Assembly: GCA_965208805.1 (NCBI GenBank) | Contig: OZ242355.1 | Coordinates: forward strand, 1,480,982 to 1,544,981 | DNA: 64,000 bases | DNA from: Acidimicrobiales bacterium | GTDB lineage: Bacteria; Actinomycetota; Acidimicrobiia; Acidimicrobiales; Bin134 | Direction of reading: 5' to 3' | Shown here: positions 1,158 to 52,546 of the stretch, in pieces | How positions within the stretch are numbered: the first letter of the stretch is position 1 | How the letters are laid out: each line of letters begins with the position of its first letter | Made by a program: the position numbers and the translations under genes | Notes under the pieces: generated by a model | What the model was told of the DNA's origin: nothing | The model's input: only the letters and a program-made list of their open reading frames with translations | The model's database searches: none

Positions 1158-2836
1158 CTCGGTGTTGTCCCGATCCGGTCGGCGGCGTCCTTCTTGAGCT
1201 GCCCCTTGGCCACTTTGCCTCCTGATGACCGGGGCAGGGCATCAACCACAAACAGGTGCTCGGGCCACCATTCTCGGGACACGCCGCGTTGGGCTAGGTG
1301 CTCCCGGAGTCCACCTAAATCCAGGCTGGTGTCGGGAACCAGCTCCACGTAGGCGGCCACTCGCTCGCCGAACACCGGATCGGGGGCGGCCACGGCAGCC
1401 ACCATGGCCACCGCCGGGTGGGTCATCACCTCGTCTTCCACCGCGGGGGCGCTGATGTTCTTGCCCCCTCGGATGATGAAGTCCGAGGTGCGGCCCACCA
1501 CCCGCAAGTAGCCGTCGTCGTCGATCTCCACGATGTCGCCCATCAGCATCCGGCCGTCATCGGTCATCAGCTCGGTGTTGGCTTTGGCGTCGTCGTAGTA
1601 GCCCAAAGCGGTGGCCGGCCCCCGACAGGCGGGCTGGCCCCGGCCTCGCAGTTCGGGCAGCCGCTGCCCGTCGTCGGGGTCGTACAACGCGCAGTCCATT
1701 TCGGGTTCGCACTTGCCCCCAGTGCGCAGCCGGGCCGATCGTGGATCGCTCAAGCGGGTGCCGCTCAGCATCCCGGTCTCGTTGGAGCCGTAGAAGTTCA
1801 ACACGGTGCAGCCGGTGCGGTCCTCGAATTCTGCGGCCCGCTGATAGGGGATGGCCTCGCCCCCGGTGAACATCAGCCGCAGCGACGACAGATCGTGGTC
1901 GTCGAAGGCGGGGGAGTTGAGCATCATGATGAATTGGGTGGTGACCGCGCACAGCACGGTCACCCGCTCGGCCTCGATGAGCCGCAACAGTGCCGCGGCG
2001 TCGAAGTCGGCCATCACCACCGTGGGAACGCCCAAAATGGTGGGGGTGTAGTGGGCGGTCCACAGCCCGAAGCCGAACGGAGCGGGCACCGGCACGCAGA
2101 ACACCTCGTCGGTCCCCAGCCCGCTGTACTGCACCGCCTTCTGGTGGAAGTAGAACCAGCGATTGTGGGTCTGCATCACGCACTTGGGCAGCCCGGTGGT
2201 CCCCGATGTGGAGTTCAGCAGGCACAGCTCGGAGGCCCCGAGACGGCGGGCTTCAACGGTCTCGCCAAACTCGAGCGCCGACTCTGGCGCAGGGGCGGGC
2301 TCGCCATTCAGAAACAGGGCCGCATCCTGGCCGAGGCTGTCGATGGTGATGTGGTGGGCGAGGGCGGGCAGGCTTCGCCGTAGCTCGGCCACCACATCCG
2401 CGGCTGGGCGACCCTGGGTGGTGGCTCCTGTGATAACAGCGCGGGCCCCGGATTTCTCCACCAGATGGGCAATCTCTGCCGGCCCGGCTCGGTGTCCGAT
2501 TCCCATGACCACCACACCGGCCTTGTCGGCCCCAGTGAACGCAGCGTGGACCGCAGCACTGTCGGGCAAGATCACCGCTGCCCGGTCGCCCCGATCCAGC
2601 TCCGCGGCCAACAGCGCCGCCGCCACCCGATCCGACAACCGGTCATAGCCCGCCCAAGTGGTCCGGTCGATGTTCCCTGAGGAGTCCTCCTCAGCCCCGC
2701 GTCTCCATGTGATGTAGGCAACATCGTCGGGCCGTTCGACCGCGTTGCGGCGGATTAGGTCGGTAGGGGTGTCGCGCCCCCACCACCCCGCCGTCACATA
2801 GGCAGCGGCAATCTCGGGACTAGCAGCGATGCTCAC
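1154..2836 (-). CDS. AMP-dependent acyl-CoA synthetase/ligase (ANL superfamily)
   Basis: 560 aa. AMP-binding signature LNSTSGTTGLPKCV, GDIVEIDDDGYLRVVGR hinge region, C-terminal GGKVAKGQLKK lysine. Confidence 0.85.
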   Translation of the reverse strand: MSIAASPEIAAAYVTAGWWGRDTPTDLIRRNAVERPDDVAYITWRRGAEEDSSGNIDRTTWAGYDRLSDRVAAALLAAELDRGDRAAVILPDSAAVHAAFTGADKAGVVVMGIGHRAGPAEIAHLVEKSGARAVITGATTQGRPAADVVAELRRSLPALAHHITIDSLGQDAALFLNGEPAPAPESALEFGETVEARRLGASELCLLNSTSGTTGLPKCVMQTHNRWFYFHQKAVQYSGLGTDEVFCVPVPAPFGFGLWTAHYTPTILGVPTVVMADFDAAALLRLIEAERVTVLCAVTTQFIMMLNSPAFDDHDLSSLRLMFTGGEAIPYQRAAEFEDRTGCTVLNFYGSNETGMLSGTRLSDPRSARLRTGGKCEPEMDCALYDPDDGQRLPELRGRGQPACRGPATALGYYDDAKANTELMTDDGRMLMGDIVEIDDDGYLRVVGRTSDFIIRGGKNISAPAVEDEVMTHPAVAMVAAVAAPDPVFGERVAAYVELVPDTSLDLGGLREHLAQRGVSREWWPEHLFVVDALPRSSGGKVAKGQLKKDAADRIGTTPS

Positions 2837-2851
2837 CAGGGAGATACTTCC

Positions 2852-4171
2852 CTACTGGGAAGCAATCGTGAGAGTGTAGGTGCCTAGGTCGAATCCTTCG
2901 ACGGCGACAAAGTAGGTGCCCGAGCTCGGCGCCTCCCAGTAGATACGGGGGGCTAGGCCGTCGTAGTCGTCGCTGTATTCCAGCTCTTCGAAGTCGTCAT
3001 ACAGAGTCATGTATGGATCTGACATCGTTACCGGCTCTACATCAATCTGATAGGTCACGCCTGACTCGCCCTCGAACGCAAAGAAATCTATGTCCCAAAT
3101 GTGCTCAATCTCGCCCCCGATGGGCTCATCAACTGTGACGAACGTGGCGTCCTCAGCCCAGTCGGCGTGATCGTCGGGACCCGCACTAGTGGTCTCGCCG
3201 CCCTGGTCATTAAAATCTTGGGCGAGGCCCGAGACCAAGAGTTCGGGTACGCATTCAAACATGCCGAGGCCGGCCTCGACGGCTGCGGGGTCATCCGCAT
3301 TTGCCAGCAGTGCAGCGGAGTCGATGTCGCGGGCCCAGTCTCGCAGGCACGCCCTCTCTTCATCGCTTAACTCGTCGAGCTCCACACCCAACCCCTGAGC
3401 CGCAAAGGCGATGAGCAGGTCGGGCAGGCAGGCGAACATACCGAAGCTGACTTCGAGAAAAGCGAGGCCGTCGTCATCAGCGAAGACCGCGGAGTCGATG
3501 TCGCGGGCCCAGTTTTGCAAGCACAATCTTTCATCGTCGCCCAGTTCGTCGGGTGCCACATCTAGTCCCTGAGCCTCGAGCTCTTGAATCGCGAAGCCGA
3601 TGAGCAGGTCGGGTACGCAGGCAATCATGCCAAAACTGGCCGCGAATGCCGCGGCGTCGTCTTCATCGGCGGCGAGGGCGGCGGGGTCGATGTCGCTTAC
3701 CCAGTCTTGCAGGCACGACTTCTCTTCATCGCCAAGCTCCAATTCAAACCCCACACCCAGTTCACCTTGGGATGCTTCTGTTTCGAATGTTGCAATCGTC
3801 GTTGAGAGAAGCAGACCGCGGGCAGTTTCAACGTCAAGACACCCAAGCGTCGCAGCATCCCACTCTTCCGAGCTTGTATATCCCAAGACTGTCTGTTCCA
3901 TCGCTGATTCGAACTGGCTGCTATCGAGCTCGCTGCGGATGCATTCTTGCTCCGAGGCTGAAAAGGTGTTGAACACTTCCTGCCAGGTGGTGCTTCTTTC
4001 GATTTCGAATTCTTCTGCGGTTGGCGATGAGCCTCCCTGAGTACCAGGCGATGAGCCTCCTAGAGCAGCCGGCGATGAGCTTCCCCCGCAGGCGGCAAGC
4101 ACGATGAGGGAGGCGGCGCCTAGCAGGGCAGTCGCTCCGTGGAGTCGCATACGTCGGAGGGTATTCATCAA
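2852..4171 (-). CDS. secreted lipoprotein with 3-4 Cys-pair repeats and a PPC-like (pre-peptidase C-terminal type) beta-sandwich tail
   Basis: Signal peptide plus lipobox (LIVLAAC-GGSS). Three clear ~60-aa repeats of form E(E/K)xxCLxxWxxDIDxA...FGMxxCxPxLL. C-terminal ...IWDIDFFAFEGESGVTYQIDV...GTYFVAVEGFDLGTYTLTI resembles PPC domains. Confidence 0.7.
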   Translation of the reverse strand: MMNTLRRMRLHGATALLGAASLIVLAACGGSSSPAALGGSSPGTQGGSSPTAEEFEIERSTTWQEVFNTFSASEQECIRSELDSSQFESAMEQTVLGYTSSEEWDAATLGCLDVETARGLLLSTTIATFETEASQGELGVGFELELGDEEKSCLQDWVSDIDPAALAADEDDAAAFAASFGMIACVPDLLIGFAIQELEAQGLDVAPDELGDDERLCLQNWARDIDSAVFADDDGLAFLEVSFGMFACLPDLLIAFAAQGLGVELDELSDEERACLRDWARDIDSAALLANADDPAAVEAGLGMFECVPELLVSGLAQDFNDQGGETTSAGPDDHADWAEDATFVTVDEPIGGEIEHIWDIDFFAFEGESGVTYQIDVEPVTMSDPYMTLYDDFEELEYSDDYDGLAPRIYWEAPSSGTYFVAVEGFDLGTYTLTIASQ

Positions 4172-43830: not shown

Positions 43831-44421
43831 TCACAACGCGCTGACAGCCTCAAGCACCCGGCTTTGGGGGATGTCGCCCCGCCATGAAGTCAGGATCGTG
43901 CCGTTGCCGTCCAGCAGCATTCCCGAAGGCTGGCTGGAGATACCCAGCTGGCTCCATGATTCAAAAGTCGGATCCCAGAGCATGGTGAAGGTGGTTCCGG
44001 TGGATTGGACGAAGCTCTGAGCCAGTTCGAGGTTGTCTTGGGTGCCAACTCCGATGACGTTAATCGTGTCGGCGTTGTTTCGAGCGAACTGCTCGACGCC
44101 GGGGGCTTCCCGGCGGCAGGTGGGTCAATGGGGGGCCCAGAACCACAGCACAATGGGCCGGTCAGAGGGGGCGAAGCTGTCCAGGTTCACAGTGGCCCCG
44201 GTGGCCACGTCCACCAACTCGACTGAGGGCAGATCCGATGCTGGAACCGGGGCGGCGGTCTCTGTCGCCGGTTCGGGTGCAGGCGCCTGGGTTGCCGGCG
44301 CCTCGGTTGAGACCGGCGCCCCAGTGGGAGCAGTCTCGGGGCTGTCTCCGCCGTCTCCGCAGGCGGCTGCGATTAGGGCCAAGAAGATGGCAAGGGCAAG
44401 AACCCTGATCGTCGACTTCAT
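43831..44421 (-). CDS. TlpA/ResA-like thioredoxin-fold lipoprotein with an in-frame UGA at the first CxxC position (candidate selenoprotein, motif WAPH-U-PTC)
   Basis: Lipobox LALIAAAC-GDGG and a P/T/A linker, then ...DRPIVLWFWAPH [TGA 44125-44127] PTCRREAPGVEQFARNNADTINVIGVGTQDN...LLDGNGTIL... The same frame stays open for 98 more codons to TGA 43831. Alternative start at 44448. Confidence 0.6.
44097..44127 (-). other. in-frame UGA plus downstream hairpin (candidate bacterial SECIS), copy 1
   Basis: Minus-strand RNA is UGA-CCCACCUGC-[CGCCGGG AAGCC CCCGGCG]. The stem is 7 bp and the apical loop begins about 17 nt after the UGA. Confidence 0.45.
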
Positions 44422-44434
44422 GGTTGTACTCACG

Positions 44435-45454
44435 TCAGGCTGTTCCAATGCTCGCCACCTTGTCCAAGATCCAGCTGTGCGACGGGCTGGCCCGCTTGTC
44501 GATTTCCTGGCCGAACCGGTTGAGGACGATCACACGGTGTTGACTGGTGATTCCGAGCCCGTTCCAGGAGGCGCCGGACGAATCCCACAGCATCTGGAGT
44601 GAATTCCCGGTTCCAGTGACTCGAACGAAGTGCTCGGCCTGACTCAGATTGTCTCGGGCGCCCACCCCGATCATGGTGAACTTGTCGGTGTTGTCTCGAG
44701 CCAACTGCTCGAGGCCGGGAGCTTCCCGGCGGCAGGTGGGTCAATGGGGGGCCCAGAACCACAGCACGATGGGCCGGTCAGAGGGGGCGAAGCTGGCCAG
44801 GTTGACGGAAGCCCCGGTGGCCACGTTCACCATCTCTACCGACGGCAAGTCTGAATCGGGAACCGGTGTCGGCTCCGGTGTTGGCGGTGGCGGCGGAGGT
44901 TGTGTCGGCTCCGGTGTTGACTCTGGAGGAGGCGTGGGCCTGACGGTGGACTGGGGTGTGGACACTGTCGCTGGTGTAGATGCCGGAGTCGGCTGGGAAG
45001 TGGAGGTTGCCGGTGGCACTGAAGTCGAAGTTGCTGCTGGCGCTGTGGTGGCGGGCGCTTCCGCGGTGGGCGCTGAGGTTGCCGCTGGCTCCTCGGGTGC
45101 GCTGGTTGCCTCAGTCTCAGTGGGTTCGGGAGCGGGAGCATCATCGGGCTCGGGCAGTCCGGGATCCGGACTTGGCTCAAGCTGGTCAGAGGGTTCAGTG
45201 GATGCCGCGGTCGGGTCGGCCGCGATGTCTGTTGGTGCCGCGGTCGGGTCGGCCGCGATGTCTGTTGGTGCCGCGGTCGGGTCGGCCGCGATGTCTGTTG
45301 GTGCCGCGGTCGGATCGGCCGCGATCTCGCCGCTGCCCTCTTCCGATGTCTCCGTACCCCCGCAGGCAGCAGCGGCCAGGGATAGAACCAGGGCTATGCC
45401 CGCGGCGGCGAACACTCTGGTTCGCCGCCCACGGCACAATGCCCGAATGCTCAC
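44435..45454 (-). CDS. TlpA/ResA-like thioredoxin-fold lipoprotein paralog with an in-frame UGA at the first CxxC position (candidate selenoprotein) and a long P/T/A-rich linker
   Basis: Lipobox LSLAAAAC-GG and a ~190-aa low-complexity linker, then ...DRPIVLWFWAPH [TGA 44741-44743] PTCRREAPGLEQLARDNTDKFTMIGVGARDN... The frame stays open to TGA 44435. Confidence 0.6.
44714..44743 (-). other. in-frame UGA plus downstream hairpin (candidate bacterial SECIS), copy 2
   Basis: Minus-strand RNA is UGA-CCCACCUGCC-[GCCGGG AAGCU CCCGGC]. Geometry matches copy 1; the internal difference from copy 1 lies in the loop (C to U). Confidence 0.45.
45204..45328 (-). repeat. in-frame 33-nt tandem repeat x3.8 in the linker of the second TlpA-like gene
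   Basis: gccgcggtcgggtcggccgcgatgtctgttggt at 45204, 45237 and 45270 (perfect), plus a diverged partial copy. It encodes DPTAAPTDIAA repeats. Confidence 0.95.
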
Positions 45455-45484: not shown

Positions 45485-47188
45485 TCACTCTCCGAGGCTG
45501 CGATAGGGAGCGGTCTGCTGGACGCAGGTGGGAATGTCGGGATCGCCGGGACATGGGAAATTGAACACCAACTCGGTCACCACATCAGGGGCGCCGAACT
45601 TGTTGGGGCCGAAGGTGGCGGGAAGCTGATGCTGGATGTCCACCGAACCCAGGTTCTGGAAGGCTGTGTAGATGTCCTGGCGAGTGGGGTTGGGCCCGGC
45701 GTCGTAGATGGCCCGGGCCACCATGCGCATTTCGGTACACACCGTTGAGGTCATGCCGTAGGCGCTGTCGTAGCTCCCGTAGATCTCCCGGGTGTGGCTA
45801 GCGCCGATGGCACTGTTAGCCGCATAAGTCTCGTTGCACATGATGTTCAGCGGTGCGTTGAAGCTGAGCACCGGGTCGTCGGAGCGGAAGTTCCCAGTGG
45901 GAGCATCGTCGATGATGATGGTGCCGTTGTACATCTCCGCGGCGGCGTCTCCGCCGAACTGAGCCACCTTGCCCGACACTAGGTCACCGGCCTGGCTGTT
46001 GAAGTCAGAGTTGTAGAACTGCACGTCGCCAGGGGCGTAACCCTGGTTGACCATCTCATTGATGAACTGGGGCAAGCTGAGCACGTTGAGGCCTGGGAAG
46101 ACCACGTCGACGCCCTCTTCCAGCATCCGCTCCACCGCGATGTCGTTGCCCTCACGGCAGGTGGTGGCCCCGCCGCAGCCGATCTGCTCGGCCACGGCGA
46201 TGTCGTAGCCAGCGGCCTCTATGACATCGATGATCCCGGCTTGCACGGTCTCGGGTTGCCCGGGGGTGTCGGGCCAGATCACCGCAATGGTCTTGCCGTC
46301 CAAGGCGCCGGTGTCGATGATCGCCTGGGTCATGTTGACCACTGAATCCTCGGCCACGGGGCTAAGCGAGTACAGCAGGCCGTTGGCTTGCTCATGGAAC
46401 TCGCGGGGGTTCCCCTGAGTGGTGAGGAACAGGGTGTCGTGGTCGGCCGCGATGCACAGGATTGCGCTGCCCTGGAAGCCGGTGGTATTGGTCACGATCA
46501 CCGCGTTGTGATCCTCGGTGGCTTCGATACAGGCTTGGTTGCGCAGCGTGTCGATGTCCTCGCCACCGCCGCCGAGCGCGGATACCTCTACGAGACGGAG
46601 ATCGATCTGGCGACCCCAGATCCCGTTGCAGTCTTCGTTGATCGCCTTGGTGAACGCCTCGAACATGTCAATGGGGTCGCCTACCGGAACGGCGAAGCCG
46701 ATGCCCTCCAGCTCCTCCAGCTTGGTGCGGAGGTGGACGATGGTGATGGAGTCCTCGGTGATGCCCACGTCGGTGGCCTGGGGTGGCGAATCCGGATCGG
46801 GCGTGGCCGTGCAGAACACGTCCAGCGACTGGAATGGGTGGGAGCGGTCGAAGGTCCTGTGAAAATCGATGAACAAGTCGCCCCGGGGCTCGTCGAAACC
46901 GATGTCCACCGGCTCTTCGGTTGCTGGTTCGGATGGCTCGCCTGAATCGTCGGATGGCTCAGAAGGCTCTTCTTCGTCGGTGGCCGGAGCCTCGGTGTCC
47001 TCTGCCGGTGCTGGCTCGTCTTCACCGTCGGTATCTACTGGGGCATCCGGTTCGTCGGTGGCCGGCGCCGCGGTTTCCTCTGCCGGGGCTGGTTGTGCAC
47101 CGTCGTCATCATCGTCGCCTCCGCATGCCGCGGCGATGAGCGTCAATGCCAGCAGTATCCCCAGAATCTTGAGCATCTTGTGAGTCAC
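45485..47188 (-). CDS. ABC transporter substrate-binding lipoprotein (Liv/type-1 periplasmic binding fold) with an acidic N-terminal linker
   Basis: Lipobox LTLIAAAC-GGDDDDD and a D/E/P/A-rich linker containing a diverged ~78-nt repeat. The body resembles branched-chain amino acid type SBPs. Divergent from the Liv-type transporter genes. Confidence 0.7.
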   Translation of the reverse strand: MTHKMLKILGILLALTLIAAACGGDDDDDGAQPAPAEETAAPATDEPDAPVDTDGEDEPAPAEDTEAPATDEEEPSEPSDDSGEPSEPATEEPVDIGFDEPRGDLFIDFHRTFDRSHPFQSLDVFCTATPDPDSPPQATDVGITEDSITIVHLRTKLEELEGIGFAVPVGDPIDMFEAFTKAINEDCNGIWGRQIDLRLVEVSALGGGGEDIDTLRNQACIEATEDHNAVIVTNTTGFQGSAILCIAADHDTLFLTTQGNPREFHEQANGLLYSLSPVAEDSVVNMTQAIIDTGALDGKTIAVIWPDTPGQPETVQAGIIDVIEAAGYDIAVAEQIGCGGATTCREGNDIAVERMLEEGVDVVFPGLNVLSLPQFINEMVNQGYAPGDVQFYNSDFNSQAGDLVSGKVAQFGGDAAAEMYNGTIIIDDAPTGNFRSDDPVLSFNAPLNIMCNETYAANSAIGASHTREIYGSYDSAYGMTSTVCTEMRMVARAIYDAGPNPTRQDIYTAFQNLGSVDIQHQLPATFGPNKFGAPDVVTELVFNFPCPGDPDIPTCVQQTAPYRSLGE

Positions 47189-47297: not shown

Positions 47298-49643
47298 ATG
47301 GGGGACCAAATGGACGACTCGGTGGAACCGGACGTCGACGGCTCGCAGTTGGACGATCCAGCTCTGAACCACCCAGACAAGTTGGACGATCCAGCTCTGA
47401 ACCACCCAGACAAGTTGGACGATCCAGCTCTGAACCACCCAGACAAGTTGGACGATCCAGCCAATTTGGCCTCGGCGGTTTTCGAGGAGGAGTCCAAGCG
47501 CCTCGCCGAGCAGGCGGCCAAGTCGGAAGTGGTGGTGCTTCCCGACGATCTGCTGCCCGGTGTGGGCGAAGCGCCCATGACGTTGCGGCAGGGAATCCAG
47601 GCTGGCGGGGCAAGCATGCTCGTGGTGCTCTTCTTGCTCAACGTGATCGACGAGTTCGACCGGGTGGCAATCGCCGTGCTCCTGCCCGATCTCCAAGACG
47701 CCTTCGGCGTGTCGGACACGGTGATTCTGGGCATCTCCTCGTTTGGCGGTGTGGCCCTGGTGCTGGGGGCGGTGCCGCTGGCCTGGCTGGCCGACCGGGT
47801 GAAACGCACCCTCATCGTGCCAGTGGCCACTGCGGGGTGGGCGGTGAGTGTGTTTCTCACTGGTTTGGTGAAGAACCCATTCCAGTATTTCTGGACCCGG
47901 GTTCTCACCGGGGCGGGCCAGGCCAACCGCTTGCCGGTACACTCATCGCTGCTCACCGATACCTATCCCATACCGGCTCGGGCTCGGATTTTTGCCTTCG
48001 AGGGCATGGGTCGGCCCATTGGTCTGCTGATCGGACCGGTGCTGGCCGGCGCCATCGCCTCGATTGCCGGTGGGGATGACGGGTGGCGCTGGGCCTTCTA
48101 CATCTTCGCCATCCCGCCGGTTGTCCTGGCGCTGGTGTCTCTGATTTTGAAGGAACCCCCTCGAGCTGGCAACGAGCAGCAGGCCATCTTGGGCGAGCAG
48201 TACGAGATGCCCCCCATCGGGTCGGATCTTCCGGTTTCCATGTCCACGGCTTTCGCCCGACTCAAGAAGGTCAAGACCTTCTACTTTCTGGCCGTGGGGG
48301 TGGGCACCCTCGGCTTCGCGCTGGTCACGCTGCCCAGCCAGCTCAACCTGATGCTGGAAGACGAATACGGCTACGAGGCGTTCCAGCGGGGCTGGGTGAC
48401 GTCGCTGGTGTGGCTGGCCAGCCTGGTGGCCATCCCCATCTCGGGCTTCAAGTTCGACGGTATGTTCCGGGAGGATCCGGCCAAGATGGTGCGGACGGCG
48501 GGCACGCTCATCATTATGTCGGGCGTGCTGGTGCTCATCGCCATGCGATTCCACCAGCCTGCCATCATGATCTTCGGCATCAGTCTGGCCAACGCCTGCA
48601 CATCGGCCTCCTTCGTGGCCGCCGCCCCCACCATTGGCGCGGTAGCCCCTTACCGGATGAGGGCTCAGGCGTTCGCGCTGTTGCCGGTGTTCATCTTCTT
48701 GATGGGCGGGTTCATGGGCAGCATCATCGCCGGTTCCATCAGCGACGCCCACGGAGAGCGCCTGGCCATCAGCATCGTGGCCCCGCCGGCTTCGATAATC
48801 GGCGGTCTGCTGGTGGCTTACGGATCCCGCTACATCAAACGCGACATCTCGCTGGCGGTGAGTGAGCTGGTAGAGGAGCAGGAGGAGATGCGCCGCATGT
48901 CGGAGCATCCCGATGACATCCCGGTGCTCCAGGTTCGGGGACTGGACTACAGCTACGGCCCGGTGCAGGTGCTGTTCGACTGCGGGCTGGAGGTGCGCCG
49001 CGGCGAGACGCTGGCCCTGCTGGGCACCAACGGCGCAGGCAAGTCCACCCTGTTGCGGGCGGTCAGCGGTTTAGGCGTACCTGATCGGGGGGCCATCCGT
49101 CTCAACGGGCGCACCATCACCTACGCCGATGCTGAGCTGCGCTTCAAGCAGGGCATTGTGCAGGTGCGGGGAGGCGCCGGAGTGTTCCCCGGCCTGACGG
49201 TGGAGGAAAACCTCCTGGCCACCATGCTCAGCACGAAGGAGGAGAAGGCCGAGATCTCCCGGCGAGTCGAGCGAGTGTACGACGTATTTGGCGCGCTGCG
49301 GGAGAAGCGCAATCAAGCCGCGGGAGACCTCTCCGGTGGCCAGCAGCAGATGCTGGCCTTCGGGATGGGCTTGATGCACGAACCCGAGGTGCTGCTCATC
49401 GACGAGCTCTCGCTGGGCCTGGCCCCGGTGGTGGTGCAGGAGCTGTTGGAGGTTGTGGAACAACTGAAGGAGACCGGGCTCACCATGATCATCGTGGAGC
49501 AGTCGCTGAACGTGGCCCTGAGCGTGGCCGAGCGGGCGGTCTTCATGGAGAAGGGCCGGGTGCGCTTCGAGGGCCCGGCCCAGGAGCTGGCCGAGCGAGA
49601 CGACCTGGTGCGGGCGGTGTTCCTCGGTGCCGAGGGTGGTTGA
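47298..49643 (+). CDS. fusion protein: N-terminal 12-TM MFS-type domain plus C-terminal LivF-type ABC ATPase
   Basis: Single uninterrupted 781-codon ORF. Residues ~95-520 contain 12 hydrophobic segments and ...LADRVKRTL... (MFS loop 2-3 style). The C-terminus has GTNGAGKST, LSGGQQQMLAFG and LLIDELSLGLAP. Confidence 0.75.
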   Translation: MGDQMDDSVEPDVDGSQLDDPALNHPDKLDDPALNHPDKLDDPALNHPDKLDDPANLASAVFEEESKRLAEQAAKSEVVVLPDDLLPGVGEAPMTLRQGIQAGGASMLVVLFLLNVIDEFDRVAIAVLLPDLQDAFGVSDTVILGISSFGGVALVLGAVPLAWLADRVKRTLIVPVATAGWAVSVFLTGLVKNPFQYFWTRVLTGAGQANRLPVHSSLLTDTYPIPARARIFAFEGMGRPIGLLIGPVLAGAIASIAGGDDGWRWAFYIFAIPPVVLALVSLILKEPPRAGNEQQAILGEQYEMPPIGSDLPVSMSTAFARLKKVKTFYFLAVGVGTLGFALVTLPSQLNLMLEDEYGYEAFQRGWVTSLVWLASLVAIPISGFKFDGMFREDPAKMVRTAGTLIIMSGVLVLIAMRFHQPAIMIFGISLANACTSASFVAAAPTIGAVAPYRMRAQAFALLPVFIFLMGGFMGSIIAGSISDAHGERLAISIVAPPASIIGGLLVAYGSRYIKRDISLAVSELVEEQEEMRRMSEHPDDIPVLQVRGLDYSYGPVQVLFDCGLEVRRGETLALLGTNGAGKSTLLRAVSGLGVPDRGAIRLNGRTITYADAELRFKQGIVQVRGGAGVFPGLTVEENLLATMLSTKEEKAEISRRVERVYDVFGALREKRNQAAGDLSGGQQQMLAFGMGLMHEPEVLLIDELSLGLAPVVVQELLEVVEQLKETGLTMIIVEQSLNVALSVAERAVFMEKGRVRFEGPAQELAERDDLVRAVFLGAEGG
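47348..47461 (+). repeat. perfect in-frame 33-nt tandem repeat x3.5 at the 5' end of the MFS-LivF gene
   Basis: gttggacgatccagctctgaaccacccagacaa at 47348, 47381 and 47414, plus a partial copy. It encodes LDDPALNHPDK x3. Confidence 0.95.
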
Positions 49644-49687
49644 GCGGTGAGGCGAGCTGACGCAGGCCGAGACCGGATGGCCGTGCT

Positions 49688-52546
49688 GTGATCGACATCG
49701 GCTGGGAGATCTCCCAACAGGACTTGTTCTCGGGCAGCGTGCAGGGGCTCATAGTGGCCGCGCTGGCTGCGGGGTTCGTGCTCATCTACCGGTCCACCGG
49801 GGTGCTCAACTTCGCCCACGCCGAAATCGGCAGCTTTGGCGTGGCCCTGATGGCCATGCTCACGTTCCGCTACGACGTGCCCTACTGGCTGGCGTTTTTC
49901 TTGTCGGTTGGGGCGGCGGCTGGCTTTGCCATGGTCACTGAGCTGGTTGTGGTGCGGCGGCTCTTCAACTCGCCGCGCCTGGTGTTGTTCATCGCCACGC
50001 TGGGAGTGGCCCAGCTGGCCATCTTCGCGGCCATCCAGCTTCCCGACGTATCCCGGCCGGGGCCGTTTCCTCTGCCCCCTAAGCTCACTGCTCAAGAGTT
50101 TCGCTGGGAGGTCACCGACCACCTCCGCATCGGCGGGCGCGAGCTCATCGTGGTGATCATGGTGCCGCTGGTCATCGCCATACTGGCGCTGTTCTTGGGC
50201 CGAACCCGATTCGGGTTGGCCATCAGAGCCTCAGCGGAAAACTCCGACACCGGGAGGCTGTTCGGAATCAGCGTGCGACGGGTGTCCACCATGGTGTGGA
50301 CCATCGGCGGGGCCCTGGCCGGCGTCACGCTCATCTTGCTGGCGCCATTCCGGGTCAGCGCGGCCGACGCAGGCACCGCCAGCCTCGGGCCGGGGTTGCT
50401 TCTTCGCGTGCTGCTGGTGGCGTTGATCGCCCGAATGCGATCGCTGTGGGTCACTCTGATCGCCGGAATCTGTCTGGGTATCTTCCAGCGGCTGTTCCAA
50501 GGCAACGTCGACCGGGAGATCCGCGAGGCGGTGGATGTGATCTTCTTCATTGCCATCCTGGTGATCACGGTGATGTTCGCCCGCCGAGCCACCGAGGACG
50601 AGGGGGAATGGTCGCTCTCGCCCAAGGTGAAAGCCATTCCTGAGCGGCTAAGGGGCCTGTGGTACATCCGCAACCTCTCGAGGTTTGGATTCGTCGCCTT
50701 ATTCGGTGCTCTGGTGCTGCTCGGGCTGTTCCTCACCAAGAACTCCAATCTCTACACCTGGACCCGCATCCTGGGCTTCGCTTTGATCGCCTTGTCGGTG
50801 TCAATGCTCACCGGCTGGGCTGGGCAACTTTCATTGGGCCAATTCGCCTTCGCCGGGGTGGGTGGACTCACGGTGGTGGCGTTGACCGAGAACGGCGACA
50901 TCCCCATTCCATTCGACTGGTGGGATTGGTCGTTCGACCTTCCCTGGGGGGTGGCCATGGTGATTGCGGTGGCCGCGGGAATGATCACCGCATTCATCAT
51001 CGGCGTGCCCGCGCTGCGGGTGAAGGGGCTCATGCTGGCGGTGACCACGCTGGCGTTCGCCATCGCCGCCATGTCGTGGATCTTCGCGCAGGACGTGTTC
51101 ACTCAGGGAGCTACCAATACACCCAAAGTCATCCCTCCGGTTTGGGGTCCGTTCGACTTCACCGCCTCCCGGAAGTCGTACTTCTTCATGGTGCTTGCAT
51201 TGCTGGCTCTCGCGGTGTGGATGGTGGCCCACCTGCGCAAGACCGGAATTGGCCGGATGATGATCGCGGTGCGCGACAACGAGGACATGGCTGCCGCCTC
51301 CACCGTGTCGGGCAGCCGGATCAAGCTCATCTCGTTCACACTGGCCGGCGGGTTGGCCGCACTGGGAGGTGGGCTGATCATCACCGGCGAGCCCACCATC
51401 AACCCCCAAGTCCTGTTCAACTCCAATGAGTCGATCAATGTGATCGCCATCGCCATAATCGGCGGTCTGGGTTCGATCGCCGGACCCCTGCTGGGCGTGT
51501 TGTGGGTGAAGGGCATTCCCGCCATCTTCGGGGCCAGCGACGAGGTGCGGCTGCTCACCTCTGGTGTGGGTCTTCTTTTGCTGTTGATGTACTTCCCCGG
51601 CGGGATTATGCAGCTCCTCTACAAGCTGCGCGACTTCTTGTTGGGGATGGCCGATGAGCGCATGGCGGCCCGGGACATTCCCGAACCGGTGCCGGCGCTG
51701 GACAAGCCGGTGCCGATCACCAGCGAGCGCACTGTGTCGGTCGAGGAGGGTCTACCGTGGCTGGCGGTGCGGGACGTGCATGTCCACTTCGGCGGAAAGG
51801 TGGCGGTGGACGAGGTCTCCATAGACGTGTACAAGGGAGAGCTGGTTGGCCTGATCGGCTCCAATGGGGCGGGCAAATCAACCTTGATGAATGCCGTCAG
51901 CGGGTTCGTCCCGTTTAGGGGCGGAGTGGAAGTGCTGGGAAGGGACATCTCGCGCCTGCCGTCGTATCGCCGCCACCGGGGCGGCCTGGGCCGGGGATTC
52001 CAGCACGCCAAGATCTACCCGGATCTCACCGTAAGAGAAGCGTTGATGGTGGCGATGGAGGCCCGTGACCGTTCGTTGCTGGTTCCGTCGCTGCTGGGAG
52101 TGCCGCCTTCGCCGGGCCAAGAGCGGCGCAAGCGGGCAGACGTCGACAGCCTCATGGACTTTGTGGGGCTGGGGCGATACGCCGACCACTTCATCTCCAA
52201 CCTGTCCACCGGAACTCGCCGCATAGTGGAGTTGGCCAGCCTGCTGGCGGTGGACGCCAAGGTGCTGCTGCTGGACGAGCCCACCGGGGGGGTGGCCCAG
52301 CGGGAGAGCGAGGCGTTCGGTCCGCTCATCCGGCGCATCCAGGCCGAGCTGGGCGCAGCGGTGGTGGTGATCGAGCACGACATGCCGCTGGTCATGAGCA
52401 TCAGCGACCGGGTCTACTGCTTGGAGGCAGGGCGAGTGATCTCCGAGGGATCTCCGGAGGAGGTGCGGAACGATCCGCTGGTGATTGCCTCCTACCTGGG
52501 GACTGACGTGAGAGCTATTGAGCGCTCTGGGGAGCGTACGACCTAG
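49688..52546 (+). CDS. fusion protein: LivH-like permease plus LivM-like permease plus LivG-like ATPase
   Basis: Single 952-codon ORF. N-terminal LivH-style TM domain (FVLIYRSTGVLNFAHAEIGSFG), central LivM-style domain (LTGWAGQLSLGQFAFAGVGG), C-terminal GSNGAGKST...LSTGTRRIVELA...LLLDEPTGGVA. Confidence 0.8.
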   Translation: MIDIGWEISQQDLFSGSVQGLIVAALAAGFVLIYRSTGVLNFAHAEIGSFGVALMAMLTFRYDVPYWLAFFLSVGAAAGFAMVTELVVVRRLFNSPRLVLFIATLGVAQLAIFAAIQLPDVSRPGPFPLPPKLTAQEFRWEVTDHLRIGGRELIVVIMVPLVIAILALFLGRTRFGLAIRASAENSDTGRLFGISVRRVSTMVWTIGGALAGVTLILLAPFRVSAADAGTASLGPGLLLRVLLVALIARMRSLWVTLIAGICLGIFQRLFQGNVDREIREAVDVIFFIAILVITVMFARRATEDEGEWSLSPKVKAIPERLRGLWYIRNLSRFGFVALFGALVLLGLFLTKNSNLYTWTRILGFALIALSVSMLTGWAGQLSLGQFAFAGVGGLTVVALTENGDIPIPFDWWDWSFDLPWGVAMVIAVAAGMITAFIIGVPALRVKGLMLAVTTLAFAIAAMSWIFAQDVFTQGATNTPKVIPPVWGPFDFTASRKSYFFMVLALLALAVWMVAHLRKTGIGRMMIAVRDNEDMAAASTVSGSRIKLISFTLAGGLAALGGGLIITGEPTINPQVLFNSNESINVIAIAIIGGLGSIAGPLLGVLWVKGIPAIFGASDEVRLLTSGVGLLLLLMYFPGGIMQLLYKLRDFLLGMADERMAARDIPEPVPALDKPVPITSERTVSVEEGLPWLAVRDVHVHFGGKVAVDEVSIDVYKGELVGLIGSNGAGKSTLMNAVSGFVPFRGGVEVLGRDISRLPSYRRHRGGLGRGFQHAKIYPDLTVREALMVAMEARDRSLLVPSLLGVPPSPGQERRKRADVDSLMDFVGLGRYADHFISNLSTGTRRIVELASLLAVDAKVLLLDEPTGGVAQRESEAFGPLIRRIQAELGAAVVVIEHDMPLVMSISDRVYCLEAGRVISEGSPEEVRNDPLVIASYLGTDVRAIERSGERTT

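What the first reader, a model, noticed from the sequence alone, without database searches (positions are those of the whole stretch)
43831..45454. Two tandem TlpA/ResA-like lipoprotein genes with TGA exactly at the first Cys of the CxxC motif: candidate selenocysteine (H-U-P-T-C) oxidoreductases
The six-frame track ends two ORFs at ...DRPIVLWFWAPH* (44125..44448 and 44741..45454). After that single TGA, both continue in the same frame into PTCRREAPG(V/L)EQ(F/L)AR... and about 100 further codons of thioredoxin-fold-like sequence (to 43831 and 44435). I checked the frames by hand: 44127-43831+1 = 297 nt, and 44740-44704 = 36 nt. TlpA/ResA/DsbE proteins have W-C-x-x-C at this spot. Here the TGA sits exactly on the redox-active N-terminal Cys, which is the classic Sec/Cys-exchangeable position (UxxC) in thioredoxin-fold selenoproteins. 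TGA is an ordinary stop elsewhere in the window (scpA, aroA, gatD, murT), so this is not a reassigned code. A stable hairpin follows each TGA at SECIS-like distance. Automated annotation would report four fragments or two pseudogenes. Caveat: the ~170 nt around the TGA are nearly identical between the paralogs, so the two TGAs may not be independent events (gene conversion).
Basis: partly seen in the sequence, partly recalled or inferred. Interest (0 to 1): 0.8.

Follow-up and report, generated by a model that had tools for sequence, protein, structure and literature searches.

The report
Two unannotated selenocysteine lipoprotein oxidoreductase genes
Two neighbouring genes for cell-surface thiol-disulfide enzymes are interrupted by a "stop" codon that is almost certainly read as the rare amino acid selenocysteine; about 80 related bacterial species share the feature, and public databases wrongly split these genes into fragments.

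Summary
Two tandem minus-strand genes (44421..43831 and 45454..44435) each carry an in-frame TGA exactly where TlpA/DsbE-type thioredoxin-fold proteins have the first Cys of CxxC. The read-through products are lipoproteins most similar to M. tuberculosis DsbF and DsbE. The TGA is not a lesion. It occurs at the same codon in 110 gene copies from the window, two further chromosomes and 77 of the 80 species-representative Acidimicrobiia genomes scanned (a 78th copy is seen at a contig edge), including cultured Ilumatobacter nonamiensis. The roughly 97 downstream codons are always open and under purifying selection (dN/dS 0.09-0.33). Full-length relatives have Cys at that position. Two adjacent hairpins follow the TGA. 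They are held in place by frozen synonymous sites and a few compensatory changes, and they are absent from the Cys forms. The second hairpin fits the published bacterial SECIS rules in 83 of 88 sequences. Ilumatobacter is reported to have SelA, SelB, SelD and 10-15 selenoproteins. I could not check the Sec machinery in the window's own lineage. One related sponge MAG is reported with SelD but no SelA or SelB. Verdict: real selenoprotein genes, new members of a known kind (UxxC TlpA-like selenoproteins), systematically mis-annotated as fragments.

The parts
43831..44421 (-). Gene A (downstream copy). Read-through ORF of 196 aa from ATG 44421 (alternative GTG 44433), with Sec at residue 99. Layout: lipoprotein signal peptide, Pro/Ala/Thr/Glu-rich linker, then a TlpA/DsbE-like thioredoxin-fold domain with H-U-P-T-C and an intact cis-Pro loop (SSQPSG).
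   Evidence: Pfam Redoxin/AhpC-TSA over residues 63-185. PDB best matches are Mtb DsbF 3IOS (E 3e-17) and DsbE/MPT53 1LU4. dN/dS downstream of the TGA is 0.11-0.30 against orthologs.
44125..44127 (-). In-frame TGA of gene A: candidate Sec codon, at the first Cys position of CxxC.
   Evidence: The same codon is TGA in 110 copies from 80 sources. It aligns to Cys in the Cys forms and in Mtb DsbF.
44097..44115 (-). Gene A hairpin 1 (nt 13-31 from the U of UGA): CGCCGGG-AAGCC-CCCGGCG.
   Evidence: Fold. Conserved across the family, with four pair types at pair 15-29 and a 3-nt shift of the 5' arm in Ilumatobacteraceae.
44080..44096 (-). Gene A hairpin 2 (nt 32-48): UCGAGC-AGUUC-GCUCGA. This is the best SECIS apical stem-loop candidate.
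   Evidence: Fold. 97.7% of cells paired in 88 distinct sequences. GCT and CGA codons are frozen. Meets the published bSECIS rules in 83/88 (rules from PMC13188914).
44359..44361 (-). Gene A lipobox cysteine (…LALIAAA-C-GDGG), the predicted lipid-attachment site.
   Evidence: Read directly from the sequence. No signal-peptide predictor was available.
44435..45454 (-). Gene B (upstream copy). Read-through ORF of 339 aa from GTG 45454, with Sec at residue 238. Layout: lipoprotein signal, about 170-aa Pro/Thr/Ala/Glu-rich linker, then a TlpA/DsbE-like domain with H-U-P-T-C. The cis-Pro is replaced by His (TSQHRVIVLN).
   Evidence: Pfam Redoxin over residues 203-321. B-type copies are conserved in many sponge-lineage genomes, with dN/dS 0.08-0.27.
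44741..44743 (-). In-frame TGA of gene B: candidate Sec codon.
44714..44730 (-). Gene B hairpin 1: GCCGGGA-AGC-UCCCGGC.
44695..44713 (-). Gene B hairpin 2: CUCGAGC-AGUUG-GCUCGAG.
45362..45364 (-). Gene B lipobox cysteine (…SLAAAA-C-GGTE).
   Evidence: Read directly from the sequence.
45203..45325 (-). 33-bp tandem repeat (3.7 copies, 98% matches) inside the gene B linker. It encodes AADPTAAPTDI repeats.
   Evidence: translation.

Best explanation
Both genes encode selenocysteine-containing, lipid-anchored, extracytoplasmic thiol-disulfide oxidoreductases of the TlpA/ResA/DsbE family. They are closest to mycobacterial DsbF and DsbE. The nucleophilic first Cys of the CxxC active site is replaced by Sec, giving H-U-P-T-C. 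During translation the UGA is recoded as Sec by Sec-tRNA(Sec) delivered by SelB. SelB is recruited by a coding-region SECIS made of two adjacent hairpins, 9-45 nt downstream of the UGA; hairpin 2 (loop AGUUC) is the likely SelB-binding apical stem-loop. The full-length product is exported, lipidated at the lipobox Cys and held on a long flexible linker outside the membrane. There the U-x-x-C pair cycles between selenol/thiol and selenenylsulfide to reduce or exchange disulfides in envelope proteins. In some relatives a neighbouring CcdA-type membrane protein probably supplies the electrons. Shown here: conserved UGA, selection on the downstream ORF, Sec/Cys homolog pairs, conserved RNA structure, and fold family. 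Inferred: Sec insertion itself, SelB binding, lipidation, direction of the redox reaction, and substrates.
For: (1) The TGA is at the identical codon in 110 gene copies from 80 sources: the window, two chromosomes fetched earlier, and 77 of the 80 GTDB species-representative loci. These span the sponge-associated Poriferisocius/Acidimicrobiales lineage, Ilumatobacteraceae and cultured I. nonamiensis. Amino-acid identity falls to about 50%, and the two residues between U and C vary freely (PT, TI, SI, PV, ST, PA and others). (2) The downstream ORF is always open, and dN/dS is 0.09-0.33 outside the hairpin region. (3) Protein databases hold only the two halves of these genes. (4) Full-length relatives at 45-53% identity have APH-C-PxC with the same lipoprotein layout. 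Mtb DsbF aligns WFWAPW-C-PTC to WFWAPH-U-PTC. (5) RNA element: hairpin 2 is paired in 97.7% of cells, with a CG-to-UA compensatory change. Hairpin 1 pair 15-29 shows CG, UA, GC and AU. Ala+14 is GCT in 102/103 and Arg+15 is CGA in 90/98, against 7% and 13% usage elsewhere in the same genes. The His codon before the UGA is CAT in 98/99, against CAC 51: CAT 12 elsewhere. The 48 nt after the UGA fold about 6 kcal/mol better than synonymous recodings (mean z -1.93; control regions -0.1). The four Cys forms show no such excess. Hairpin 2 meets the published bSECIS rules in 83/88. (6) TGA is otherwise a normal stop in this window. (7) Ilumatobacter coccineus and I. nonamiensis are listed as SelD+, SelA+, SelB+ with 15 and 10 selenoproteins (PMC5029168 Tables S1 and S2). 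UxxC TlpA-like and Redoxin selenoprotein families are already catalogued (PMC13188914 Table 1). (8) A DsbD_TM (CcdA-like) gene lies within 3 kb in 10 of 80 loci.
Against: No selA, selB, selD or tRNA-Sec is in the 64-kb window or in any fetched locus, and I could not search the rest of the genome. The sponge MAG bin134 carries the same tandem TGA pair (L012). It is tabulated with SelD = 1 but SelA = 0 and SelB = 0; it is 90% complete in 224 contigs (PMC5649159 Table S4 and Table 1). RNAalifold recovers only part of hairpin 2 and reports little covariation; most of the structural support is conservation, not covariation. No Rfam SECIS model matches. No curated NCBIfam selenoprotein family is met. 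Gene B lacks the cis-Pro that thioredoxin-fold enzymes normally need. One MAG (L036) has an approximately 85-nt deletion that removes the active site, the UGA and the hairpins. No experimental evidence exists.
Confidence: 0.85

Rival explanations
1. The UGA is read through or recoded without the canonical Sec pathway. A standard amino acid (Cys or Trp) would be inserted by a suppressor-like or near-cognate tRNA, with the conserved hairpins acting as a read-through stimulator rather than a SelB-binding SECIS.
For: Sec machinery could not be shown for the window's lineage. bin134, which carries this locus, is tabulated with SelD but no SelA or SelB. Hairpin 1 mostly fails the SECIS loop rule (13/88).
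Against: SelD is present in bin134. Orthologs with the same hairpin 2 sit in Ilumatobacter genomes reported to have SelA, SelB and SelD. The UGA lies exactly on the Sec/Cys-exchangeable catalytic residue. Hairpin 2 fits SECIS rules in 83/88. A MAG that is 10% incomplete can easily lack one selAB operon.
Confidence: 0.06
2. The genes are pseudogenes, or the TGA is a sequencing or assembly error. Only the truncated N-terminal lipoproteins, or nothing, would be made.
For: Annotation pipelines treat them this way. One MAG (L036) does show a deletion of the region.
Against: The same TGA occurs in 110 copies from 80 sources, including closed long-read chromosomes. There are no secondary stops or frameshifts downstream. 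dN/dS is 0.09-0.33 downstream. Synonymous sites are frozen in a structured element.
Confidence: 0.02
3. Split genes: the N-terminal and C-terminal parts are made as two separate polypeptides, with termination at TGA followed by re-initiation, and then assemble.
For: Gene callers find start codons a few to about 22 codons after the TGA in some genomes.
Against: There is no conserved start codon or ribosome-binding site after the TGA. Predicted starts differ between genomes: MCRRE from ATC in some, MIGVG about 22 codons later in others. The split would cut the CxxC motif after its first position, and the exported half would be separated from a C-terminal half with no signal peptide. Cys forms are single chains.
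Confidence: 0.02

Closest known systems
Mycobacterium tuberculosis DsbF (Rv1677, PDB 3IOS) and DsbE/MPT53 (Rv2878c, PDB 1LU4)
   Same: Best sequence matches among solved structures (E 3e-17 and 1e-14). The alignment runs through the active site: VLWFWAPWCPTCQGEAP against VLWFWAPH-U-PTCRREAP. Both are actinobacterial, exported TlpA-like thioredoxin-fold proteins. That DsbF is a lipoprotein is from my own knowledge, not tested here.
   Different: The mycobacterial proteins use Cys, not Sec. They have Trp rather than His before the active site, and no SECIS hairpins. M. tuberculosis has no Sec system (my knowledge).
[quoted passage not shown]
   Same: Same fold superfamily, same UxxC motif with Sec at the first position, same Pfam models.
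   Different: I could not fetch the representative accessions, so direct membership is not shown. The H-U-P-T-C / VEQFAR subfamily with lipoprotein anchor and tandem copies is not described in the texts I read. The curated NCBIfam selenoprotein models are not met.
ResA / CcmG (DsbE) / TlpA reductases working with CcdA/DsbD
   Same: Sub-threshold NCBIfam hits to DsbE, ResA and TlpA. PDB hits to CcmG and ResA. A DsbD_TM (CcdA-like) gene is adjacent in 10/80 loci.
   Different: No cytochrome c maturation genes (ResB/ResC, Ccm) or CcdA lie near the genes in the window or in the sponge-lineage loci. The substrate is unknown.
E. coli fdhF-type bacterial SECIS
   Same: A stem-loop inside the coding region just 3' of the UGA, with G-U in a small apical loop, within the 16-37 nt spacing rule.
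   Different: Two separate short hairpins rather than one long bulged stem. There is no Rfam match, and SelB binding is untested.

Membership tests
Bacterial selenoprotein gene (UGA decoded as Sec) | In-frame UGA conserved among orthologs, with a conserved open reading frame on both sides | tested here: met
   110 copies from 80 sources have TGA at the same codon. Downstream dN/dS is 0.09-0.33.
Bacterial selenoprotein gene (UGA decoded as Sec) | Homologs with Cys aligned to the UGA | tested here: met
   L003/P0018 has TGC. P0063-P0105 have APH-C-PxC. Mtb DsbF and DsbE align Cys to the site. Tandem Cys paralogs occur in L060, L076 and L078.
Bacterial selenoprotein gene (UGA decoded as Sec) | bSECIS: 4-16 bp stem, 3-9 nt loop with G in the first two loop positions, 16-37 nt from the UGA | tested here: met
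   Hairpin 2 meets the rules in 83/88 distinct sequences and hairpin 1 in 13/88 (rules quoted). Structure beyond coding constraint. RNAalifold support is weak.
Bacterial selenoprotein gene (UGA decoded as Sec) | selA, selB, selC (tRNA-Sec) and selD in the same genome | not testable with these tools
   None in the window or fetched loci. The literature lists Ilumatobacter spp. (which carry orthologs) as SelA/B/D+, and sponge MAG bin134 as SelD only.
Bacterial selenoprotein gene (UGA decoded as Sec) | Selenium shown in the protein (75Se labelling or mass spectrometry) | not testable with these tools
   No experimental data found.
TlpA/ResA/DsbE-like thioredoxin-fold oxidoreductases (Pfam Redoxin, AhpC-TSA; cd02966) | Domain match above the curated threshold, spanning the active site | tested here: met
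   Gene A: Redoxin 50.5 bits, AhpC-TSA 51.6 bits. Gene B: 38.5 and 34.4 bits. Cut-offs are about 26 bits. PDB DsbF E 3e-17.
TlpA/ResA/DsbE-like thioredoxin-fold oxidoreductases (Pfam Redoxin, AhpC-TSA; cd02966) | W-C-x-x-C-type active site at the start of helix 1 | tested here: met
   WFWAPH-U-PTC aligns with WFWAPW-C-PTC, with Sec in place of the first Cys.
TlpA/ResA/DsbE-like thioredoxin-fold oxidoreductases (Pfam Redoxin, AhpC-TSA; cd02966) | Conserved cis-Pro loop opposite the active site | tested here: inconclusive
   Present in gene A (SSQPSG aligns with QQPAY of DsbF). Replaced by His in gene B and all B-type copies (TSQHRVIVL).
TlpA/ResA/DsbE-like thioredoxin-fold oxidoreductases (Pfam Redoxin, AhpC-TSA; cd02966) | Extracytoplasmic location with a CcdA/DsbD electron donor | tested here: inconclusive
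   Signal peptide and lipobox are read from the sequence only. A DsbD_TM neighbour occurs in 10/80 loci, but none is in the window.
Curated NCBIfam selenoprotein families (e.g. NF047660 HUIPC-motif thioredoxin-like, NF041054 ResA-like WAxxUGC) | Score at or above the family's curated cut-off | tested here: not met
   NF041054 scores 30.9 bits against a cut-off of 300. NF047660 is not hit at all. The best hits (DsbE, ResA, TrxC) are all far below their cut-offs.

The most novel reading that the evidence does not exclude
The sponge-associated lineage really does lack SelA and SelB, as tabulated for MAG bin134, yet keeps SelD, the conserved UGA and the two-hairpin element. These genes would then be decoded by a non-canonical recoding route: a different Sec-delivery factor, or insertion of Cys or another residue at a structured UGA.
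Probability: 0.05. Interest if true: 0.85.

Novelty: new member of a known kind. Interest (0 to 1): 0.45.

Why it matters
The result recovers two complete redox enzymes, and a family found in about 80 species, that public annotation currently splits into a "hypothetical protein" plus a truncated "TlpA family protein". It adds lipid-anchored, extracytoplasmic selenoproteins to the repertoire of Acidimicrobiia, including abundant sponge symbionts. That fits the reported enrichment of Sec genes in sponge microbiomes. It also supplies a well-sampled SECIS variant (88 distinct sequences, two hairpins) that could train bacterial SECIS and selenoprotein predictors. Finally, cultured Ilumatobacter offers a system in which the element and the Sec-versus-Cys advantage of a DsbE/DsbF-type enzyme can be tested.

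Tried and rejected
- **Rfam.** Scans at gathering threshold and at E up to 10 found no SECIS or tRNA-Sec. This is uninformative, because bacterial SECIS elements are poorly modelled there.
- **RNAalifold.** On the 88-sequence alignment it returned only four pairs of hairpin 2 at -0.8 kcal/mol. I therefore relied on named-structure pair counts, synonymous-site statistics and synonymous-recoding controls.
- **sel genes in held sequence.** tblastn with E. coli SelA, SelB and SelD, written from memory (SelA later confirmed 100% correct), found nothing in the window or the loci then held, L001-L003. ARAGORN found no tRNA-Sec in the window or in the 60 loci L004-L063 it was run on.
- **Identifying the source genome.** An exact look-up of a window protein failed.
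- **Seeding a machinery search.** I fetched an actinobacterial sel cluster from a Tsukamurella plasmid. I decided not to spend the large protein searches on it: without an Acidimicrobiia seed, the lineage's SelA, SelB or SelD would rank far below thousands of closer Actinomycetes clusters.
- **Other selenoprotein candidates.** Scans of the window and all loci for other TGA-interrupted coding regions gave only antisense or adjacent-gene artefacts.
- **P0062.** The top hit of the representative search (5,697 aa, 25 stretches) is a Thr/Asp/Gly-rich repeat protein with no CxxC: a compositional false positive.
- **Reassigned genetic code.** Rejected. TGA ends 27 of 49 coding-like ORFs in the window, including both genes themselves.
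Full report
**Observation.** On the minus strand, two tandem ORFs end at ...DRPIVLWFWAPH followed by TGA (44127..44125 and 44743..44741). Both continue in the same frame as PTCRREAPG(V/L)EQ(F/L)AR... for 97 and 101 codons, to their own TGA stops at 43833..43831 and 44437..44435. With Cys substituted for the TGA, both products match Pfam Redoxin, AhpC-TSA and Thioredoxin_8 above gathering scores, and the matches span the TGA. Both begin with a signal peptide ending in a lipobox Cys (LIAAA-C, LAAAA-C), followed by a Pro/Ala/Thr/Glu-rich linker. In gene B this linker is about 170 aa and contains a 33-bp tandem repeat. TGA is the stop codon of 27 of 49 coding-like ORFs in the window, so the genetic code is not reassigned. 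Each TGA is followed by two adjacent hairpins. The coordinates and frame arithmetic in the finding are correct. The only correction is that gene A more likely starts at ATG 44421 or GTG 44433 than at TTG 44448.

**The TGA is conserved, not accidental.** A protein search returned about 60 relatives, and almost all are halves of the gene. The N-terminal fragments end ...LWFWAPH. The C-terminal fragments start MCRREAPG... or MIGVGTQD.... NCBI names them "hypothetical protein" and [quoted passage not shown]. Two closed chromosomes (L001 from OZ241977.1, 3.57 Mb; L002, 3.14 Mb) show the same tandem pair in the same synteny: a substrate-binding lipoprotein, gene B, gene A, then a convergent gcvT. 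Both copies carry the TGA.

I then scanned one genome per GTDB species using only the post-TGA domain as query, so the scan was neutral between Sec and Cys. It returned 80 loci, all Acidimicrobiia or Actinomycetota. They include sponge-associated Poriferisocius and Acidimicrobiales chromosomes, Slaby's Aplysina MAG bin134, many Ilumatobacteraceae MAGs and cultured Ilumatobacter nonamiensis YM16-303. The codon is TGA in 110 gene copies from 80 sources (the window, L001, L002 and 77 of the 80 scanned loci), and a further copy at a contig edge (L018) also shows it. Thirty sources carry two copies. The two residues between U and C vary freely, and identity to the window falls to about 50%. Of the two remaining loci, one is cut by a contig end (L031). 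The other (L036) has an approximately 85-nt deletion that removes the active site, the UGA and the hairpins.

**The downstream half is translated in this frame.** Nei-Gojobori dN/dS for the region after the hairpins is 0.09-0.33 in 17 ortholog pairs, for both A- and B-type copies. This is similar to the 36 codons upstream of the TGA. No start codon is conserved after the TGA. A separately made C-terminal piece would also have no signal peptide and would lack the first active-site residue.

**Sec/Cys pairs.** An exhaustive HMMER search of 1.84 billion representatives with the post-TGA domain found full-length lipoproteins at 45-53% identity. They carry APH-C-P(A/S/T/Y)C at the aligned position (P0063-P0105). 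L003/P0018 has TGC there. Three loci carry a tandem Cys paralog, WFWAPW-CVIC. The closest solved structures are M. tuberculosis DsbF (3IOS, E 3e-17) and DsbE/MPT53 (1LU4). They align VLWFWAPW-C-PTC to VLWFWAPH-U-PTC.

**RNA element.** I aligned 88 distinct 63-nt contexts without gaps.

- Hairpin 2 (nt 32-48 from the U of UGA: UCGAGC-AGUUC-GCUCGA) is paired in 97.7% of cells. One pair changes from CG to UA on both sides in five sequences.
- Hairpin 1 (nt 13-31 in the sponge lineage) shows four pair types at pair 15-29 (CG 43, UA 9, GC 4, AU 1).
- In Ilumatobacteraceae hairpin 1 keeps the same 3' arm, but its 5' arm is shifted by 3 nt. Pairing is therefore preserved even though the encoded residues change from RRE to R(A/S/T)E.

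Most of the support comes from frozen synonymous sites:

- Ala+14 is GCT in 102/103 and Arg+15 is CGA in 90/98. These codons are used 7% and 13% of the time elsewhere in the same genes.
- An equally invariant Ala at -3 uses all four codons.
- The His codon before the UGA is CAT in 98/99, against CAC 51: CAT 12 elsewhere.

The 48 nt after the UGA fold on average 6 kcal/mol better than recodings that keep the protein and the family's codon usage (mean z -1.93). Two control regions in the same genes give z of about -0.1. The four Cys forms give -0.7 to +1.0. Against the published bacterial SECIS rules (loop 3-9 nt, stem 4-16 bp, G in the first two loop positions, 16-37 nt from the UGA; PMC13188914), hairpin 2 passes in 83/88 and hairpin 1 in 13/88. 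RNAalifold alone gives a weak consensus, and Rfam has no match.

**Sec machinery.** The window and all fetched loci contain no selA, selB, selD or tRNA-Sec. I had no way to search the rest of the genome. The literature evidence is indirect:

- Peng et al. 2016 list Ilumatobacter coccineus and I. nonamiensis YM16-303 as SelD+, SelA+, SelB+, with 15 and 10 selenoproteins. L067 is the I. nonamiensis ortholog, with the same TGA and hairpin 2.
- A 2026 preprint reports universal Sec machinery in Actinomarinales, another Acidimicrobiia order.
- Slaby et al. 2017 found SelA and SelB COGs enriched in sponge symbionts.
- However, their table gives SelD = 1, SelA = 0 and SelB = 0 for bin134, the MAG that carries this tandem locus as L012. 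That MAG is 90% complete in 224 contigs.

This last point is the main piece of contrary evidence. It could reflect an unbinned selAB operon or a real absence.

**Function.** The domain belongs to the TlpA/ResA/DsbE group. In 10 of 80 loci, none of them from the sponge lineage, a DsbD_TM (CcdA-like) gene lies within 3 kb. This suggests a reductive, CcdA-fed role in at least some relatives. No cytochrome c maturation or copper-delivery genes are nearby in the window, so the substrate is unknown. Gene B and all B-type copies replace the cis-Pro with His but remain under purifying selection. That points to a diverged activity rather than decay.

**Comparison with what is known, and novelty.** UxxC thioredoxin-fold selenoproteins are the commonest class of predicted bacterial selenoproteins. 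TlpA-like (cd02966), Redoxin (PF08534) and Prx-like (PF00578) UxxC families are already catalogued. Ilumatobacter's selenoproteome has been counted. No curated NCBIfam selenoprotein model covers this subfamily, which explains the fragmented RefSeq and GenBank annotation. I therefore class it as a new member of a known kind, of moderate interest. The gene-conversion caveat is real: L024 and L002 show long identical stretches between copies. Conservation across species makes it irrelevant to the main conclusion. The residual uncertainty, about 10-15%, is almost entirely the unverified Sec machinery in this lineage.

Noticed in passing
window 45203-45325 (minus-strand gene B linker): A 33-bp tandem repeat (3.7 copies, 98% matches) encodes AADPTAAPTDI repeats in the lipoprotein linker. 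The orthologous linker in L001 has no such repeat, so linker length appears to be variable.
   Followed up: partly
window 44500-44560 (gene B, ...GITSQHRVIVLNRFGQEIDK...); B-type copies in L001, L004, L005, L008-L023: The upstream copy replaces the thioredoxin-fold cis-Pro with His (Leu in L021) and has a diverged C-terminus. It still keeps the UGA and hairpins, with dN/dS of 0.08-0.27. Other genomes (L002, L007, L012, L024, L028, L030) have an A-like upstream copy with the Pro intact.
   Followed up: partly
window 44128-44130 and 44744-44746; alignment of 103 copies: The His codon immediately 5' of the UGA is CAT in 98/99 copies, although CAC is preferred 51:12 elsewhere in these genes. This suggests a constraint on the nucleotide context just before the recoded UGA.
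   Followed up: partly
L049 3306-4268; L060 5349-6284; also L053, L054, L062, L065, L070, L077, L078, L080: A CcdA-like membrane protein gene (Pfam DsbD_TM, just above threshold) lies next to the Sec gene in 10 of 80 loci, all outside the sponge lineage. In L049 a DUF3179 gene with a CPLC motif is also adjacent; the 2026 review lists DUF3179 as a selenoprotein family.
   Followed up: partly
L060 ~3740, L076 ~4008, L078 ~1563: A Cys paralog (WFWAPW-CVIC/CVTC-RGEAP) sits about 740 nt downstream of the Sec gene in three Actinomycetota MAGs. This is a tandem Sec/Cys pair, and the Cys copy has no hairpins.
   Followed up: partly
L036 ~540-560 (Candidatus Poriferisocius aerobius MAG, 7.6-kb contig): About 85 nt covering the active site, the UGA and both hairpins are missing, which joins ...NLAGFAPS to LTVIGVGTQD out of frame. 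This is either a real deletion pseudogene or a short-read mis-assembly across the near-identical tandem copies.
   Followed up: no
L069 3001-3675; P0083, P0084: Some orthologs carry a C-terminal extension of about 125 aa after the TlpA-like domain (…FCRY(A/V)DR…). I did not identify what it is.
   Followed up: no
PMC5649159 Table S4 (bin134 = L012, MPNQ01000016.1): The sponge MAG that carries this tandem TGA locus is tabulated with SelD (COG0709) = 1 but SelA (COG1921) = 0 and SelB (COG3276) = 0. A second sponge Acidimicrobiia bin (bin76) has all three.
   Followed up: partly
L055 ~2777-3000: Two partial copies are separated by a run of masked N bases, so the tandem pair could not be read in this MAG.
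   Followed up: no
window 45485-47188 (minus strand) and 47298-52546 (plus strand): Immediately upstream of gene B, on the same strand with a 30-nt gap, is a 567-aa lipoprotein that matches Peripla_BP_6 in the syntenic L001. Next to it are divergently oriented ABC-transporter genes for fused permease/ATPase proteins. I did not examine whether this is co-transcribed with the Sec genes.
   Followed up: no
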